From: Escherichia phage 236Ecol005PP
Strand: one strand, 5' to 3'
Sequence record: PP434423.1
Length of the DNA: 64,000 nucleotides
In this document: piece by piece, positions 8,702-38,839 of the stretch
Layout of the letters: each line of letters begins with the position of its first letter
Numbering within the stretch: the stretch's first letter is position 1
The notes under the pieces: model-generated
Told to the model about the DNA's origin: nothing
Seen by the model: only the letters and a program-made list of their open reading frames with translations
Databases searched by the model: none
Position numbers and translations under genes: made by a program

Positions 8702-9172
8702 TTAATCATGTTTCCACACCCCATCGGTATTTGACCAAAGTCGCTGATTATCTGAACCTCGCCACAGCTTTTTGGTCGGAAGATTTTTCTCATACTTCCC
8801 ATCAATAATAACATCAACATATTTAAGCATTTCTAGTTGTTTAATATCTTCAAACTTATATCCTGTCCACAACCAAATGCTTTTATTCGGATAAAGATTT
8901 TTTACTGTTTGAACAATGCAATGAACAACATCTCGGTTATCAGGATAAAGAGGGTCACCTCCAGTTATAGTTAATCCTTCTATATAATCATTATTCAAAC
9001 ATTCAATTAATTGTTCTAGTGTTTCACCAGTGAATGGAACGCCATTTCTAGCATTCCAAGTACTACGATTATAACAACCTTCACATTTATGCAAACAACC
9101 TGTAACGAAAAGAACGACCCTGCATCCAGGGCCATTCACAAAATCGCAAGGATAAAATCTATCATAATTCAT
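8702..9172 (-). CDS. nrdG: Anaerobic ribonucleotide reductase activating protein (radical SAM)
   Basis: 156 aa; CxxxCxxC radical-SAM cluster motif (GCLHKCEGCYN); directly downstream of nrdD with 4-nt overlap. Confidence 0.9.
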   Translation of the reverse strand: MNYDRFYPCDFVNGPGCRVVLFVTGCLHKCEGCYNRSTWNARNGVPFTGETLEQLIECLNNDYIEGLTITGGDPLYPDNRDVVHCIVQTVKNLYPNKSIWLWTGYKFEDIKQLEMLKYVDVIIDGKYEKNLPTKKLWRGSDNQRLWSNTDGVWKHD

Positions 9173-10460
9173 TGGTGTTTAACCCTATGCATGATTTCTT
9201 TATTTTTGCCGAGATTAAATCCACGTTCGTTCGGATTTCCCAAATAACCACAAGTTCTTCTTATTGTGTTCATCTTTTTAGGATCAGTTTCTCCACAAAT
9301 AGAACAAACAAATCCGTTTTCAGTAGGAGTCATTTCATGAGTGCTTCCACACGTAAAACATTTATCTACTGGCATGTTAACACCAAAATAATCTAAATGT
9401 TGTGCAGCATAATCCCATACAGCCTCAAGACCTTTTAGGTTATTTTTCATATCAGGAAGTTCAACATAAGAAATGTGACCGCCTGTTGCAATGAAATGAT
9501 ACGGGGCTTCGCGAGAAATCTTTTCAAACGGAGTAATATTTTCTTCTACTGAAACGTGGAAACTGTTAGTGTACCAGCCTTTATCAGTAACATCCTTTAC
9601 ACTTCCATATTTTTCTGTATCAAGTTTACAGAAGCGATAGCAAAGGTTTTCAGCAGGAGTAGAATACAAGCTAAAAGCAAAACCGGTTCTTTCAGTCCAC
9701 TGCTTAAGACGAGCATTCATTTTAGTTAAAATTTCCTGTCCAATATCACGACCGACAAGAATATTCAATTCGTGAATACCAATGTATCCTAGGGACACTG
9801 AACTTCTACCGTTTTTAAATAACTCAATTATGTCGTCATCAGGTTTAAGACGAACCCCGAATGCACCTTCTTGGTAAAGAATAGGAGCAACAGTCGCTTT
9901 AACTCCTTTTAAGGAACTAATTCTACACATCAATGCTTCAAAACACAAATCCATTCGTTCATTGAACAATTCGGCAAATTTCTGTTCATTGAACTGTGTT
10001 CCAATATAAGAATCTAATGCAATACGAGGAAGATTCAGTGTTACAACACCAAGATTATTACGTCCATCAAGAATTTCATTACCAGTCGAATCTTTCCATA
10101 CGCCCAAGAAACTACGGCAACCCATTGGAGAAACAGGAATAGATGAACCAGTGATAGCTTTATTGTTCTTAGCTGAAATAATATCAGGATACATTCTTTT
10201 ACTTGCACACTCTAGAGCAAGCTGCTTAATATCATAGTTCGGATCGTCTTTATAAAGATTAACACCTTCTTCAACGAACATAACAAGTTTAGGGAAAATA
10301 GGAGTTATCCCATCACGACCAAGACCTTTAATACGATTTTTCAGAATTGCTTTCTGAATCATTCGTTCAGTCCAGTCAGTTCCCGTACCAAATGTAATTG
10401 TTACAAAAGGCGTTTGTCCGTTAGAGCTGAAAAGTGTATTTACTTCATCATTATATTCAG
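9169..10460 (-). CDS. nrdD: Anaerobic ribonucleotide reductase NrdD, exon 2 (C-terminal part incl. Zn-ribbon CxxC...CxxC)
   Basis: Frame continuous with exon 1 after removal of ~1 kb intron; ORF-track start at 10500 is a TTG inside intron; splice junction placed by U.G/terminal-G rule, +/- a few nt. Confidence 0.8.
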
Positions 10461-10474
10461 CATGAGTCGCAAAT

Positions 10475-10867
10475 TCATGCCCGTTTATATGAAACAACAA
10501 AATTTGGATAGTCCATAGATATGCAACGTTCTTTTATAGTGCTAGGATGAAAATTTAGCGCTTTAGCTGCTTCTATATAAGACGTATACTTAATACCGTC
10601 AACAACCACATATTCAGGAACTTTATGAATAGTAGCCTTAATACTCAAAACAAGAGGATGAGTTTCGACTTCACTTTCAGTGCAATTTAAATATTCCGCT
10701 GCTTTTTTAAAACTTCTAAAAGTTTTATTTTTAAGCTTTATCGATACTTGTTTTTTACTTTTTCGACTATTGATATTATTTTGCACATGTTCCTTAGATC
10801 TTCCGTTTTTAGCATAATATTCAGCTACAGAAGATTTTATATTGTTTTTATGAGATTCGGATAACAC
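10475..10867 (-). CDS. intron ORF, C-terminal part of homing-endonuclease-like protein (DNA-binding tail)
   Basis: 130 aa (GTG start); C-terminal IKYTSYIEAAKALNFHPSTIKERC helix-turn-helix-like motif typical of intron endonucleases; different frame from upstream ORF. Confidence 0.45.
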   Translation of the reverse strand: MLSESHKNNIKSSVAEYYAKNGRSKEHVQNNINSRKSKKQVSIKLKNKTFRSFKKAAEYLNCTESEVETHPLVLSIKATIHKVPEYVVVDGIKYTSYIEAAKALNFHPSTIKERCISMDYPNFVVSYKRA

Positions 10868-10874
10868 TTTACCC

Positions 10875-11246
10875 TTATGAGCATCTCTTAATTTTTGAAT
10901 ATGTTCCTTCAGTATCCGGATGCTTATAAAACTTTTTACCGCCTATGGATTTATTTAAACATTTTTTGCTATAAAAATATTTACGTATGACCTCTTCTTC
11001 ATGTTTTAATGCATCTTTATAACTATCAAATGTTTTTAAAATTATCCATTTAGTAGGTGTATCAGTTTTTAAGCGTTCATTTATATACTTAGATGACGTT
11101 GTGTAAGTTTTCCAGTTTGTGGGCTTGTTTTTAATTGTTCTAAATTTTTTATAACCGATATAAATGTCGCCATTAGAAAACTTAACTAAGTATGTAAATG
11201 CGTCTTTATCTTTTATTTTAGTACAACGTCTTTTTATCCATTTCAT
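10875..11246 (-). CDS. intron ORF, N-terminal part of homing-endonuclease-like protein (GIY-YIG-like)
   Basis: 123 aa; TYL-x8-YIG motif (FTYLVKFSNGDIYIGY); stops 8 nt before next ORF in another frame, suggesting a frameshifted single gene. Confidence 0.45.
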   Translation of the reverse strand: MKWIKRRCTKIKDKDAFTYLVKFSNGDIYIGYKKFRTIKNKPTNWKTYTTSSKYINERLKTDTPTKWIILKTFDSYKDALKHEEEVIRKYFYSKKCLNKSIGGKKFYKHPDTEGTYSKIKRCS

Positions 11247-11494
11247 TGTTTCACCTCGTATTCATAAGATAATCTTATTTATACAAGATGACTGCTGCAT
11301 GTCGCCATGCAGATTAGACTATATCTTCATCTTTCGATGCCGGCCGTTTCGAATAGCATTAGCTTCTATTCTACACCGCTACATTCATCACGGTTAGTCG
11401 TTAGGCATTTAGTTCAAAAGAACATTTAGCACGGGATTGTCTACTAGAGAGGTTCCCCGTTTAGACCGGTTTTACATGAGCCTGAATTAAATTA

Positions 11495-12032
11495 ACTCAT
11501 ACGCCTGGAATGCATCGTATACATCTTTTTCTGTTTTAGATTGGGCATAATTCAATGCATCTGCGATTTGCCATTTTTCCGCGTCCTCAATATGTTTCGC
11601 ATAGGTGCGTTTAACATAAGGAGAAAGTACTTTATCTACATTCGCAAAAGTCGTTCCGCCATATTGATGAGAAGCAACCTGTGCAGTAATTTGTGCCATA
11701 ATTGCAGTAGCAACGCCGATTGATTTAGGGGTTTCAATCTGTGCATTACCGAGCTTAAATCCGTTCTCAAGCATTCCTTTTAAATCTACTAAACAACAAT
11801 TAGTAAATGGAAGAGCAGGGGAATAATCAATATCGTGGAAATGGATAATTCCGCTTTCATGCGCTTTCATAATAAAAGACGGGACCATATTTTTGGCAAT
11901 GTGTTTAGACACAATACCAGCCATAAGGTCCCGTTGAGTTGGAAAAACACGAGAATCTTTATTAGCATTCTCGTTTAAAAGGTCTTTATTAGTTTTATGA
12001 ATCAATCCTTCAATTTCTTTTTCAATTGTCAT
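11495..12032 (-). CDS. nrdD: Anaerobic ribonucleotide reductase NrdD, exon 1
   Basis: 179 codons from ATG 12030-12032; in-frame stop 6 nt into intron. Confidence 0.8.
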
Positions 12033-12502
12033 TTTAAACTCTTTCTAAGCTGCTTCTTAAATGAAGCTATTAATTGTGTTTTAGTGTCAGATTCATTATA
12101 TTCAAATCCTCTTTGAAGCATCTCAGCCATCATTTCCTCTTTTCCTAAACGAGAAAATTCCTTTGATTTATCTCCAACAAAGTTAGGGTGAATATTATTT
12201 TGGGTGTAATCGGATTTTAAATAAGTAAGTAAATTTTCTAACCATTCAAGATAATCAACACCTTGTCCCTTTAAGCCAGAACGATTGAATTTATGCTTCA
12301 TTTGACCTTCTGCAGCATTACAGAGATTACATAGCAACCCACGTACCTTTCCTGCTTTTGGTCCATTTAATTCATGGTCATGGTCAAGGTGATTAGCTTG
12401 AACATCAGGATTTAGTTCTCGTTGGCAAATTAAGCATTTACCGTTTTGTGCATTATAAAATTTTTGTTTTTCTTCTTTGTATAATTTGCCAGTCAATAAC
12501 AT
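12029..12502 (-). CDS. 49: Endonuclease VII (Holliday junction resolvase)
   Basis: 157 aa; CLICQRELNPDVQANHLDHDHELNGPKAGKVRGLLCNLCN Zn-binding/HNH-like core as in T4 gp49. Confidence 0.9.
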   Translation of the reverse strand: MLLTGKLYKEEKQKFYNAQNGKCLICQRELNPDVQANHLDHDHELNGPKAGKVRGLLCNLCNAAEGQMKHKFNRSGLKGQGVDYLEWLENLLTYLKSDYTQNNIHPNFVGDKSKEFSRLGKEEMMAEMLQRGFEYNESDTKTQLIASFKKQLRKSLK

Positions 12503-12546
12503 AATAAAACCCTTACCTTAAATAGATAAGGGTATTTATTATTTTC

Positions 12547-12720
12547 AAGTATTGTAAAACATTCGATGCAATCGCTTATATTGTCGAATCATCTTTTTAG
12601 TAGGACGAGAATAAGTTCCTACACAAGTAGTCATATTAGGGTCTGTAGAATTTCCTTTAATAAAAAGTTTCCAAACCTTACTACCATTTAGCTTTTCAGT
12701 ATAAATCAATTCAGTTTTCA
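12547..12720 (-). CDS. small hypothetical protein (57 aa)
   Basis: ATG 12718-12720 directly after stop of upstream ORF; below ORF-track cutoff. Confidence 0.3.
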
Positions 12721-13182
12721 TTAAAATGCTCGGTCAGAAAAAGAAATTTGAGTTTCAAGCCATTCAATATATTCTGCCGCAGCTTGCATCAAATTTCCTT
12801 CATAACCATCGTTGTTTTCTTGTGCAGCTAATTTAGCTAATGCATATGAAATGCGTTCACCTTGAAAAGCGGCTTTAGGTTTATGAATAGCTTGAACTCG
12901 TTCTACGACTTCTTCAATTTCGCCATTTTCTACTGATTCAGTATTCCACAAGCACCAATACGTAATTGGCTTATCGTAAATGTTAATAATCTTTCCATCA
13001 GAAAGTTCAATTTCAATAATTCCAGTATCAGGTTCTATATCATCTTCACATTCTTTTACAAGTTCACGAACTTTAAAGACAGTACCTGCACTAAGTTCAG
13101 GCCAGTAATTACACAGCCCTTTATCAGCACGATTAATTCTAAACCACTTATCTACTGTAATCATGTCCCATCTCCATATCAA
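12721..13182 (-). CDS. hypothetical protein (153 aa)
   Basis: ORF track; occupies the region where T4 has pin, but identity not established. Confidence 0.45.
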   Translation of the reverse strand: MIWRWDMITVDKWFRINRADKGLCNYWPELSAGTVFKVRELVKECEDDIEPDTGIIEIELSDGKIINIYDKPITYWCLWNTESVENGEIEEVVERVQAIHKPKAAFQGERISYALAKLAAQENNDGYEGNLMQAAAEYIEWLETQISFSDRAF

Positions 13183-37785: not shown

Positions 37786-37862
37786 TTGGCCAGGGTGAAA
37801 GGATTCTAACCTTTAACCTGCGGTTTAGAGGACCGCTACTCTATACAATTGAGTTACACCCC
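37786..37862 (-). tRNA. tRNA-Arg (anticodon UCU), CCA encoded
   Basis: manual cloverleaf: acceptor CGGGGUG/CACCCUG, D ACUC/GAGU, anticodon stem GCGGU/ACCGC loop CCUCUAA, T-arm AAAGG-UUAGAAU-CCUUU. Confidence 0.75.
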
Positions 37863-37987
37863 GTAATTAGTTCACAGCAATACCTACTCCAACAATCAAG
37901 ATGTCTTCACACGAAATTAAGAGAAGAGTGATCAGTTCAACCACTATAATCGCGTCAAGTAGATATTAATGTGACAACTGTCACAAG

Positions 37988-38062
37988 TTTGGCGGACATG
38001 CATGGATTCGAACCATGGACCAATTGATTAACAGTCAACTGCTCTACCACTGAGCTACACAT
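37988..38062 (-). tRNA. tRNA-Asn (anticodon GUU), CCA encoded
   Basis: manual cloverleaf: acceptor GGAUGUG/CAUGUCC, D GCUC-AGUGGUA-GAGC, anticodon loop CUGUUAA, T-arm CAUGG-UUCGAAU-CCAUG. Confidence 0.75.
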
Positions 38063-38066
38063 CCAA

Positions 38067-38153
38067 ATTGGTGGGGAGTGATGGAGTCGAACCACCCGAG
38101 TCGCAATGACAATGGATTTACAGTCCACACCGCTACCTCTACGGGATAACTCC
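38067..38153 (-). tRNA. tRNA-Tyr (anticodon GUA), type II long variable arm, CCA encoded
   Basis: acceptor GGGGAGU/ACUCCCC, anticodon stem GUGGA/UCCAU loop CUGUAAA, variable arm, T-loop UUCGACU. Confidence 0.7.
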
Positions 38154-38165
38154 CCTAATTCGTAA

Positions 38166-38240
38166 TTTGGTGGCCCTGGGTGGAATTGAACCACCATCTG
38201 GCGATTATGAGTCGCTTGCTTGAACCTTCCAGCTACAGGG
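38166..38240 (-). tRNA. tRNA with CAU anticodon (Ile-lysidine type as in T4, or Met)
   Basis: acceptor GGCCCUG/CAGGGCC, anticodon loop CUCAUAA, T-arm GGUGG-UUCAAUU-CCACC. Confidence 0.7.
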
Positions 38241-38241
38241 C

Positions 38242-38317
38242 CTTGGTGCTGATTGACGGAATCGAACCGCCGACCTTCTCATTACAAGTGAGTTGCTCTA
38301 CCTACTGAGCTAAATCA
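38242..38317 (-). tRNA. tRNA-Thr (anticodon UGU)
   Basis: acceptor GCUGAUU/AAUCAGC, D GCUC-AGUAGGUA-GAGC, anticodon loop CUUGUAA, T-loop UUCGAUU; 1 nt from CAU tRNA (dimer). Confidence 0.75.
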
Positions 38318-38323
38318 GCAAAA

Positions 38324-38413
38324 ACTGGCGGAGGCGATAGGATTTGAACCTATGAGTCGCCGGAGCGACTGCCGGTTTTCAAGACCGGTGCATTAAACCA
38401 CTCTGCCACGCCT
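38324..38413 (-). tRNA. tRNA-Ser (anticodon UGA), type II
   Basis: acceptor GGAGGCG/CGCCUCC, anticodon stem CCGGU/ACCGG loop CUUGAAA, long variable arm, T-loop UUCAAAU. Confidence 0.75.
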
Positions 38414-38416
38414 CCA

Positions 38417-38489
38417 GTCTCCGCGGCAGGATTTGAACCTGCGACATTCTGCTCCCAAAGCAGACGCTCTACCAAACTGAGCTACACGG
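38417..38489 (-). tRNA. tRNA-Pro (anticodon UGG), CCA not encoded
   Basis: acceptor CUCCGUG/CGCGGAG, D GCUC-AGUUUGGUA-GAGC, anticodon loop UUUGGGA, T-loop UUCAAAU; 3 nt upstream of tRNA-Ser (dimer). Confidence 0.7.
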
Positions 38490-38499
38490 AGTAAATTAA

Positions 38500-38573
<74 letters not shown>

Positions 38574-38579
38574 GCAAAC

Positions 38580-38666
38580 TTTGGTACGAGAAGTGGGACT
38601 CGAACCCACAAGGAAATCATTCCGCAGCATTTTAAGTGCTGTGCCTTTACCAATTTGACCATTCTC
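38580..38666 (-). tRNA. tRNA-Leu (anticodon UAA), type II
   Basis: acceptor GCGAGAA/UUCUCGU, anticodon stem CAGCA/UGCUG loop CUUAAAA, long variable arm, T-arm GUGGG-UUCGAGU-CCCAC. Confidence 0.75.
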
Positions 38667-38667
38667 G

Positions 38668-38740
38668 CGCTGGGAATAAAGGACTCGAACCTTTGCATCT
38701 AGCAGTCAAAGTGCTATGCCTTATCAACTTGGCTAATTCC
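38668..38740 (-). tRNA. tRNA-Gln (anticodon UUG), CCA not encoded
   Basis: acceptor UGGGAAU/AUUCCCA, anticodon stem UAGCA/UGCUA loop CUUUGAC, T-arm AAAGG-UUCGAGU-CCUUU; 1 nt upstream of tRNA-Leu (dimer). Confidence 0.7.
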
Positions 38741-38839
38741 CAATTATTAACAAAGGCTCTCAAGCAAGAACCCTTGATGATAGAGGGTATTAATCAGTGC
38801 GATATGAGTTAATAATAACAAATAATTCTTAAAGCATAT

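What the first reader, a model, noticed from the sequence alone, without database searches (positions are those of the whole stretch)
10461..11494. nrdD group I intron carrying an endonuclease gene split into two frames
NrdD is only continuous if ~1034 nt are removed. The exon-1 end AUGAGU can pair with GCUCAU 12 nt into the intron (U.G at the splice site) and the intron ends in G, giving a ~609-aa NrdD. Inside are two ORFs in different frames separated by 8 nt: the first has a GIY-YIG-like N-terminus (TYL-x8-YIG), the second a C-terminal DNA-binding-type tail. Together (~253 aa) they look like one homing endonuclease broken by a frameshift, i.e. a decaying or frameshift-dependent intron endonuclease. 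T4's nrdD intron endonuclease is usually described as HNH-type and truncated, so the GIY-YIG-like head here may indicate a different endonuclease lineage.
Basis: partly seen in the sequence, partly recalled or inferred. Interest (0 to 1): 0.5.

Follow-up and report, generated by a model that had tools for sequence, protein, structure and literature searches.

The report
T4-type nrdD intron, frameshifted homing endonuclease
This is the well-known self-splicing intron of the T4-like phage anaerobic ribonucleotide reductase gene, here in a diverged sister lineage of T4's own intron, and its homing-endonuclease gene is broken by one extra G, so it is an ordinary, slightly decayed mobile intron.

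Summary
The window is a Tequatrovirus (T4-like) genome. Its nrdD gene (minus strand) is interrupted by a group I intron (Rfam RF00028, 70.9 bits, E=1e-17).

The 3' boundary is wrong by 12 in-frame nt. Intron-less alleles (629 records) and the T4 NrdD crystal-structure sequence put the junction at GAGU|AUGAAG. The intron is therefore 10449-11494 (1046 nt) and NrdD is 605 aa, not ~609.

The two internal ORFs are the two halves of one I-TevII-family GIY-YIG/NUMOD homing endonuclease. They are colinear with T4 I-TevII at 56% amino-acid identity. One extra G (10906/10907) splits them. That G is absent from about 40 near-identical phage introns that encode an intact 256-aa protein, and it was not found in any other sequence searched. 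It is a private lesion or a sequencing error, not programmed frameshifting.

The ribozyme shows 12 compensatory pair changes against T4 and none broken, so splicing is probably intact. Low interest: a new member of a known kind.

The parts
11495..12032 (-). nrdD exon 1 (538 nt), ending ...GCG UAU GAG U
   Evidence: ORF list. Pfam NRDD, profile positions 1-141. Junction fixed by intron-less alleles and by the PDB 1h78 sequence.
10449..11494 (-). Group I intron, 1046 nt, of the T4 sunY/nrdD type: starts UAAUUUAAUUCAGGCUCAUG and ends ...CUGAAUAUAAUG
   Evidence: Boundaries come from the base-level alignment to intron-less nrdD and from the full-length 579/579-nt matches of the exon-only query in 629 records. 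Colinear with the T4 intron at 64% nt identity.
11295..11494 (-). Ribozyme core (P1 3' strand through P9), entirely upstream of the ORF
   Evidence: Rfam RF00028, 70.9 bits, E=1.2e-17, model positions 1-253. Compared with T4, 12 of 50 predicted pairs carry compensatory double changes and none is broken. No differences from phage N2 in this stretch.
11476..11481 (-). Internal guide sequence GCUCAU, pairing with the exon-1 end AUGAGU (P1, U.G at the 5' splice site)
   Evidence: 6/6 pairing. Intron-containing alleles have GAGU where intron-less alleles have GAAU.
11276..11283 (-). TATAAATA, a T4 late-promoter-type motif about 30 nt upstream of the endonuclease ATG
   Evidence: Read directly from the sequence. 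Same position as in T4. The regulatory scheme is described for I-TevII in PMC2988022. Function is inferred.
11251..11291 (-). Hairpin that sequesters the endonuclease ribosome-binding site (GAGGUG, 11252-11257)
   Evidence: MFE -17.8 kcal/mol, z = -4.19, 0 of 200 shuffles fold as well. Analogous to the T4 I-TevII arrangement (PMC2988022).
10875..11246 (-). ORF1, 123 aa: the GIY-YIG catalytic domain of the I-TevII-like endonuclease (residues 1-113 are genuine, the last 10 are out of frame)
   Evidence: Pfam SegE_GIY-YIG, 30.1 bits against a cutoff of 25. PHROG 314, profile positions 164-275. Aligns to the T4 I-TevII N-terminus.
10906..10907 (-). Site of the single extra G (GAAGGAA against GAAGAA) that breaks the endonuclease frame after codon 113
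   Evidence: Alignments to N2, F1, T4 and U5. It is the only indel against N2 between 10300 and 11700. 40 relatives encode an uninterrupted 256-aa ORF.
10475..10867 (-). ORF2 as listed (130 aa from a GTG). The homologous reading frame actually continues from 10905. It encodes the NUMOD-type linker and DNA-binding half of the endonuclease.
   Evidence: Pfam NUMOD1, 24.4 bits against a cutoff of 22.8. PHROG 314, profile positions 295-381. Colinear with T4 I-TevII residues about 114-256.
10459..10481 (-).
   Evidence: Folds of the window and T4 tails give the same hairpin at the same position. Four of the 7 pairs differ on both sides between the two lineages (by inspection). Inverted repeat reported.
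10449..10449 (-). Terminal G of the intron (omega-G), the true 3' splice site
9169..10448 (-). nrdD exon 2 (1280 nt including the stop), starting AU GAA GUA AAU
   Evidence: Pfam NRDD and Gly_radical. The spliced product is 605 aa and aligns 1-605 to T4 NrdD 1h78 with an identical junction ...AYEYEVNT....

Best explanation
A 1046-nt self-splicing group I intron (10449-11494, minus strand) sits in nrdD at exactly the site of the phage T4 nrdD (sunY) intron. It is a diverged sister lineage of that intron.

Splicing. The exon-1 end AUGAGU pairs with the guide sequence GCUCAU (P1, U.G). The catalytic core occupies the first ~200 nt. The endonuclease gene lies 3' of P9. A conserved terminal hairpin plus 10 nt presents G10449. 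Ligation gives GAGU|AUGAAG and a 605-aa NrdD.

Endonuclease gene. The intron carries an I-TevII-family homing endonuclease gene: an N-terminal GIY-YIG nuclease domain followed by a NUMOD-type DNA-binding region. It has a late-promoter motif and a hairpin that sequesters the ribosome-binding site, as in T4. In this genome one extra G after codon 113 uncouples the nuclease domain from the DNA-binding region, so the enzyme is predicted to be dead for homing. The ribozyme is untouched, so NrdD is still made.

Shown: intron identity, boundaries, homology, the lesion, and structural covariation.
Inferred: splicing competence, loss of endonuclease activity, and that the extra G is biological rather than a sequencing error.
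For: - Rfam group I match, 70.9 bits, E=1e-17.
- Intron-less alleles define the boundaries.
- The spliced protein is 605 aa and matches PDB 1h78 across the junction.
- Colinear alignment with the T4 intron at the same site.
- 12 of 50 core pairs are compensatory and none is broken. The terminal hairpin is conserved with 4 of 7 pairs changed on both sides.
- The repaired ORF is 56% identical to T4 I-TevII over its full length.
- Pfam GIY-YIG and NUMOD1. The same PHROG is hit consecutively by the two ORFs.
- The extra G is absent from 40 intact relatives.
- Hairpin over the ribosome-binding site, z = -4.2.
- The intron differs from N2 by 1 substitution plus the G, while the exons are 92-98% identical and the surrounding 14 kb about 95%. 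This fits recent homing-type spread.
- Independent lesions in other carriers fit the usual decay of homing-endonuclease genes: F1/FN +A, 215Ecol030PP with an internal deletion of roughly 570 nt, U5 -2 nt.
Against: - No RNA data, so splicing and the exact 3' site are inferred from homology.
- The extra G cannot be told apart from an assembly or sequencing error. The frameshifted product is on record nowhere else, and the mutant 36-mer is absent from the viral and metagenome contig collections.
- An in-frame alternative G at 10461 has a stronger potential P10 (6 bp against 4 bp).
- Fold-level confirmation of the GIY-YIG domain failed (low-confidence model).
Confidence: 0.85

Rival explanations
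1. The extra G is a sequencing or assembly error. The real phage encodes an intact 256-aa I-TevII-like endonuclease and a fully mobile intron.
For: The lesion is a single-base length difference (G to GG). It is unique among about 44 records of this intron lineage. It is absent from every other collection searched. Apart from it, the ORF differs from the intact relatives by a single amino acid (repaired protein 99.6% identical over 256 aa; one nucleotide substitution against N2).
Against: GG is not a long homopolymer, the context where such errors concentrate. Real independent frame-breaking lesions do occur in this gene in other phages. No read data are available either way.
Confidence: 0.3
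2. Programmed +1 ribosomal frameshifting joins the two ORFs, so the endonuclease is frameshift-dependent rather than dead.
For: The two frames overlap over about 25 codons. A +1 shift anywhere between the upstream +1-frame stop and the ORF1 stop would yield a near-full-length protein (reading).
Against: About 40 near-identical introns and the T4 lineage encode the protein in one frame, so the configuration is not conserved. No recognisable +1 shift site (for example CUU UGA with an upstream SD) is present in the overlap, by inspection. The insertion is private.
Confidence: 0.02
3. The intron ends at G10461, as the reader proposed (1034 nt), giving a 609-aa NrdD with SEYND in place of Y. Alternatively, this site is used alongside the canonical one.
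For: G10461 is in frame and is preceded by AU like the true site. It is followed by CUGAAU, which can form a 6-bp P10 with AUUCAG directly next to the guide sequence, against 4 bp at the true site.
Against: 629 intron-less alleles and the T4 NrdD protein lack these 12 nt / 4 aa. G10461 is base-paired inside a hairpin conserved by covariation with T4. T4 has an A at the corresponding position.
Confidence: 0.05
4. The endonuclease belongs to a different family or lineage from T4's nrdD intron enzyme.
For: It is clearly diverged from T4 I-TevII (56% aa, 63% nt in the ORF). The two types form discrete groups with nothing in between in the phage collection.
Against: T4 I-TevII is itself GIY-YIG (PMC2988022). 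The two proteins are colinear end to end, with E=2e-101. No HNH domain is detected. The intron RNA and the insertion site are homologous.
Confidence: 0.03

Closest known systems
Phage T4 nrdD (sunY) group IA intron with I-TevII
   Same: Same host gene and the identical insertion site (GAGU|AUGAAG). Same architecture: core first, ORF 3' of P9, then a terminal hairpin, 10 nt and G. Same P1 guide sequence GCUCAU. Same late-promoter motif and hairpin over the ribosome-binding site. Homologous GIY-YIG/NUMOD endonuclease.
   Different: Only 64% nt identity overall (core 71%, ORF 63%), although the exons are more than 92% identical. 1046 nt against 1033 nt. The protein is 56% identical and 256 aa against 258 aa. 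Here the ORF is frameshifted by +1 G.
The same intron lineage in about 44 GenBank/RefSeq Tequatrovirus records (e.g. Escherichia phage N2, Shigella phage JK45, HY03, SHSML-52-1), annotated 'homing endonuclease' or 'intron-associated endonuclease 2'
   Same: 99.2-99.7% nt identity across the ORF and 98.2-99.4% across the 1351-nt intron-plus-exon-edges query. Same boundaries.
   Different: These records encode an intact 256-aa ORF. The window alone has the extra G at 10906/10907.
Decayed intron endonuclease genes in T-even phages: T4 I-TevIII (nrdB, deleted HNH gene) and the phage U5 nrdD intron (T4-type I-TevII with a 2-nt deletion)
   Same: A splicing-competent intron is retained while the homing-endonuclease gene is inactivated (PMC2988022 and PMC1865063; U5 alignment).
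   Different: I-TevIII belongs to a different family (HNH) and sits in a different gene. The U5 lesion is in the T4-type lineage and at a different position.
I-TevI (T4 td intron, GIY-YIG)
   Same: Two-domain design: an N-terminal GIY-YIG nuclease tethered by a linker to a C-terminal minor-groove DNA-binding domain. Late-promoter and hairpin control of expression (PMC2988022).
   Different: No detectable sequence match in the PDB search, which holds the I-TevI domains. Different target gene.

Membership tests
Group I intron (Rfam RF00028) | Covariance-model score above the curated gathering threshold | tested here: met
   70.9 bits against 50, E=1.2e-17, full model 1-253. The whole-window scan with default filters missed it.
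Group I intron (Rfam RF00028) | P1 helix between the 5' exon end and the internal guide sequence, with U.G at the 5' splice site | tested here: met
   AUGAGU with GCUCAU, 6/6 pairs, the last being U.G.
Group I intron (Rfam RF00028) | Terminal guanosine at the 3' boundary defined independently of the RNA model | tested here: met
   Intron-less alleles place the boundary after ...AAUG (G10449).
Group I intron (Rfam RF00028) | Core helices maintained by compensatory substitutions | tested here: met
   12 of 50 pairs changed on both sides against T4, none broken. Only two lineages were available, so the phylogenetic depth is small.
Group I intron (Rfam RF00028) | Self-splicing activity | not testable with these tools
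   Needs in vitro transcription with GTP, or RT-PCR from infected cells.
T4 nrdD (sunY) intron orthologue | Same insertion site in nrdD | tested here: met
   Alignments to T4, U5 and intron-less alleles. The junction matches the PDB T4 NrdD sequence.
T4 nrdD (sunY) intron orthologue | Colinear sequence homology across the core, the ORF and the 3' tail | tested here: met
   64% identity over 1053 aligned columns with 27 gap columns.
GIY-YIG homing endonuclease, I-TevII family | GIY-YIG catalytic domain | tested here: met
   Pfam PF19835 SegE_GIY-YIG, 30.1 bits against a cutoff of 25. The motif reads FTY-x9-YIG in the sequence.
GIY-YIG homing endonuclease, I-TevII family | Full-length homology to I-TevII | tested here: met
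   BLASTP of the repaired ORF against T4 I-TevII: 144/257 identical, E=2e-101, 2 gaps.
GIY-YIG homing endonuclease, I-TevII family | C-terminal NUMOD/HTH-type DNA-binding modules | tested here: met
   NUMOD1, 24.4 bits against a cutoff of 22.8.
GIY-YIG homing endonuclease, I-TevII family | Uninterrupted reading frame joining the nuclease and DNA-binding domains | tested here: not met
   A +1 G after codon 113. The locus is therefore a homologue of I-TevII, but as sequenced it is a pseudogene or split gene.
GIY-YIG homing endonuclease, I-TevII family | GIY-YIG fold | tested here: inconclusive
   The single-sequence AlphaFold model has mean pLDDT 63. The order of elements (beta-beta-alpha-beta-alpha-alpha) is compatible, but Foldseek against the PDB gave no match with E<=0.001.
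GIY-YIG homing endonuclease, I-TevII family | Site-specific cleavage of intron-less nrdD, and homing | not testable with these tools
   Needs cleavage assays or phage crosses.
HNH homing endonuclease (I-TevIII-like) | HNH / beta-beta-alpha-Me domain | tested here: not met
   No HNH family among the Pfam hits at E<=0.1 for either ORF or for the repaired protein.
Programmed ribosomal frameshift gene | Two-frame arrangement conserved among homologues | tested here: not met
   40 relatives at >=99% identity and all T4-type genes are in a single frame. The frameshift product was not found elsewhere.

The most novel reading that the evidence does not exclude
The extra G is genuine and the split gene is still used. 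For example, the NUMOD/HTH half could be translated on its own from the GTG at 10867 (an AAGGG lies 4 nt upstream) and act as a sequence-specific DNA-binding protein: an autorepressor at the intron promoter, or a protector of the homing site. Or the free GIY-YIG domain and the DNA-binding half could reassemble as a two-piece nuclease. A related reading is that the in-frame G10461, with its 6-bp P10, serves as a minor alternative 3' splice site and gives a NrdD isoform 4 aa longer.
Probability: 0.04. Interest if true: 0.5.

Novelty: new member of a known kind. Interest (0 to 1): 0.15.

Why it matters
For annotation, the results give the correct nrdD join: complement(join(9169..10448, 11495..12032)), 605 aa. 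The GenBank records inspected here (N2, F1, 215Ecol030PP, F27) annotate nrdD as two separate CDSs, and several also label the endonuclease 'hypothetical protein'.

Biologically it is a textbook case of the homing-endonuclease life cycle. An old intron lineage (64% identical to T4's) is spreading almost unchanged (over 99% identical) among phages whose flanking DNA is only about 95% identical. Sporadic independent knock-outs of the endonuclease occur while the ribozyme stays intact.

The existence of two deeply diverged intron and I-TevII lineages at one site offers a natural pair for studying the co-evolution of ribozyme structure and endonuclease specificity. This goes beyond the finding as given and is only mildly surprising.

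Tried and rejected
- The whole-window Rfam scan at gathering thresholds found only tRNAs and missed the intron. The region-restricted scan found it.
- Megablast with the ORF did not retrieve T4. This first suggested T4 was missing from the collection. It is present, and simply too diverged for megablast.
- A first guess at a 'T4-like' 3' site at 10470, read off the alignment by eye, was rejected once the T4 intron length and the intron-less alleles were used.
- A PDB sequence search with the repaired endonuclease gave no hits even at E<=10.
- A single-sequence AlphaFold model of ORF1 (pLDDT 63) followed by Foldseek against the PDB gave no significant match, so it was not used.
- The similarity between the sequence upstream of the ORF and the homing site (the Loizos/Edgell 'operator' idea) is 16/24 with a 10-nt exact run, but 85 of 500 shuffles do as well, so it is not significant alone.
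- RNAalifold on the MAFFT alignment of the 3' tails mis-registered the hairpin. Separate folds resolved it.
- Exact 36-mer scans: the mutant allele is absent from the viral and metagenome contigs. The wild-type allele is absent from the viral contigs and present once in the metagenome contigs, on a contig with an intact 256-aa ORF. This is a weak control.
- Literature: no paper in the searchable library describes this second nrdD intron lineage. The Sandegren & Sjoberg 2004 survey is not held, so prior description cannot be excluded.
- The programmed-frameshift and HNH readings were rejected (see the rival explanations).

Full report
**Context.** The window is a T4-like (Tequatrovirus) phage genome. 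Around the finding, the minus strand carries endonuclease VII (gp49, 12029-12502), two NrdD-matching ORFs (11487-12032 and 9169-10500) and nrdG (8702-9172). The closest deposited genomes are only about 95% identical over 14 kb, so the source genome itself is not in the phage collection.

**Is there a group I intron?** Yes. A whole-window Rfam scan at gathering thresholds reported only tRNAs. The same library run on 10300-11650 gave Intron_gpI at 11295-11530 (minus strand), 70.9 bits against a gathering score of 50, E=1.2e-17, covering the whole model.

**Where are the boundaries?** The 5' boundary (11495|11494) is right. The 3' boundary is not.
- An exon-only query built with the junction GAGT|ATGAAG matched 629 phage records end to end, 579 nt to 579 nt.
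- A base-level alignment to two intron-less alleles shows ...TATGAAT|ATGAAGTAAATAC....
- The inserted element is therefore 10449-11494 (1046 nt), ending in G10449, and the spliced NrdD is 605 aa.
- That product aligns 1-605 to the crystallised T4 NrdD (PDB 1h78, 605 aa), with an identical ...DAFQAYEYEVNTLF... across the junction.
- The same arithmetic on T4 reproduces its 1033-nt intron.
- G10461 has an AU before it and a 6-bp potential P10 (CUGAAU/AUUCAG), against 4 bp at the true site.
- However, it is a paired base inside a 7-bp terminal hairpin (10459-10481). T4 has the same hairpin at the same position, also followed by exactly 10 nt and the terminal G, and 4 of the 7 pairs differ on both sides between the two lineages. 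T4 has no G at the corresponding position.
- I therefore treat 10461 as, at most, a cryptic site.

**What is the intron?** It is colinear with the T4 nrdD (sunY) intron at the same insertion site, but diverged: 64% nt identity overall, 71% in the core and 63% in the ORF. The exons are more than 92% identical. Between the two lineages, 12 of 50 predicted core pairs carry compensatory double substitutions and none is broken, so the ribozyme has been kept under structural selection. As in T4, the ORF lies 3' of P9.

A TATAAATA late-promoter motif (11276-11283) and a stable hairpin (11251-11291; -17.8 kcal/mol, z = -4.2) that buries the GAGGUG ribosome-binding site precede the ATG. [quoted passage not shown] The function of these elements here is inferred.

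**What are the two ORFs?**
- ORF1 (10875-11246, 123 aa) matches the Pfam GIY-YIG family PF19835 above its cutoff.
- ORF2 (10475-10867, 130 aa) matches NUMOD1.
- Both hit PHROG 314 ('homing endonuclease') at consecutive profile positions, 164-275 and 295-381.
- Alignment to near-identical introns shows that the only cause of the split is one extra G: ACTGAAGGAACAT against ACTGAAGAACAT, at window C10906/C10907.
- This is 36-39 nt upstream of the inter-ORF gap, not 'near 10870'.
- Removing the G gives a 256-aa protein that is 56% identical to T4 I-TevII (258 aa) end to end, with 2 gaps and E=2e-101.
- The two ORFs are therefore halves of one I-TevII-family endonuclease. The frameshift cuts between the nuclease domain and the NUMOD-type linker and DNA-binding region.

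T4's nrdD intron encodes I-TevII, an active GIY-YIG enzyme. The HNH enzyme inactivated by a deletion is I-TevIII, in the nrdB intron (T4 RefSeq annotation; PMC2988022 Table 1; PMC1865063). No HNH domain is detectable here. The 'different endonuclease lineage' idea fails at the family level. What is true is that this is a distinct sub-lineage of I-TevII.

**Distribution.** tblastn with the repaired protein found 44 phage records at 95% identity or more (this lineage, including RefSeq/GenBank duplicates). About 25 further records match over essentially the full length at 55.6-57.1% identity and are the T4 type (T4 strains, RB59, PST, fPS-2, U5...). The next relatives are only 31-34% identical, and only over the GIY-YIG domain. 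Together with 629 intron-less records, roughly 90% of T4-like nrdD genes in the collection lack the intron.

Within this lineage the ORF is 99.2-99.7% identical between phages. Against N2, the whole intron differs by one substitution plus the G, while the flanking exons are 92-98% identical. This is the expected signature of recent homing-type spread of an old element.

**Is the frameshift special?** No.
- Forty relatives encode the protein in one frame.
- The frameshifted ORF1 product is not on record in the large gene-position index.
- The mutant 36-mer is absent from the viral and metagenome contig collections. The wild-type 36-mer occurs once in the metagenome contigs, on a contig with an intact 256-aa ORF.
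- The overlap region contains no recognisable +1 shift site (by inspection).

Programmed frameshifting is therefore rejected. The G is either a private mutation or a sequencing error, and I cannot tell which. I put it at about 2:1 in favour of a real mutation, because GG is not a long homopolymer and because independent lesions exist in other carriers:
- F1/FN have an extra A in an A-run.
- 215Ecol030PP has lost roughly 570 nt of the ORF interior.
- U5 (T4-type lineage) has a 2-nt deletion.
- F27 has lost an A at codon 5, but an in-frame second ATG rescues the frame.

**Mechanistic conclusion.** Splicing should proceed normally and yield functional NrdD. This is inferred: the core shows no differences from intact relatives and is supported by covariation. 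As sequenced, the endonuclease is separated into a free GIY-YIG domain with a 10-residue out-of-frame tail and an untranslated, or separately translated, DNA-binding half. It should therefore no longer drive homing. This is inferred by analogy with the two-domain GIY-YIG enzymes reviewed in PMC2988022. The intron could still spread passively, or in trans during co-infection.

**Dead ends.** The PDB sequence search for the endonuclease, the AlphaFold/Foldseek test and the homing-site-like 'operator' similarity (16/24, not significant) added nothing.

**Verdict.** The object is an ordinary member of a classic system. Interest is low.

Noticed in passing
window 10449-10461 and 11482-11487: An in-frame alternative 3' splice-site candidate (G10461) has a 6-bp potential P10 (CUGAAU with AUUCAG, directly next to the guide sequence), against 4 bp for the true site. 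If used, it would add 4 aa to NrdD. However, it lies inside a conserved hairpin.
   Followed up: partly
window 11495-11498 compared with L004/L006 (intron-less alleles): Intron-containing alleles (this lineage and T4) read GAGT at the exon-1 end, while the intron-less alleles examined read GAAT. Both encode Glu. The G is the base that pairs with the C of the guide sequence in P1, so the exon looks co-adapted or co-converted with the intron.
   Followed up: partly
window 8702-9172: nrdG follows nrdD directly (the nrdD stop overlaps the nrdG start). T4 has the free-standing HNH gene mobC between them, and phage N2 has an 831-nt 'homing endonuclease' there. This junction is a variable homing-endonuclease slot and is empty here.
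   Followed up: no
L005 (PP328843.1, phage 215Ecol030PP) 600-1080; L002 (F1); L008 (F27); L007 (U5): Independent lesions of the intron endonuclease gene in other phages: an internal deletion of roughly 570 nt (215Ecol030PP), +A in an A-run (F1/FN), -A at codon 5 rescued by a second ATG (F27), and a 2-nt deletion in the T4-type gene of U5.
   Followed up: partly
window 37790-38742 (minus strand): A cluster of 10 tRNA matches. One is weak (38074-38153, 30.2 bits against a gathering score of 29). T4 itself is usually credited with 8 tRNAs (from memory).
   Followed up: no
window 1-64000 (method): Rfam cmscan with default filters on the full 64-kb window missed a 70.9-bit group I intron that the region-restricted scan found. 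ORF-bearing introns can be lost in whole-window scans.
   Followed up: yes
window 11246-11269: The sequence just upstream of the endonuclease ATG (TCTTATGAATACGAGGTGAAACAA) shares 16 of 24 positions, including a 10-nt exact run, with the intron-less homing site. It is identical between T4 and this lineage over TATGAATACGAGGTGAAAC. This fits the published operator / ancestral-invasion-site idea, but is not statistically significant in my shuffle test.
   Followed up: partly
window 12400-12800 and 13000-13150 compared with L001 (phage N2): Identity to N2 drops to 38-77% upstream of gene 49 (the pin/49.1 region), against 96-100% on either side. This is a mosaic replacement unrelated to the intron.
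   Followed up: no
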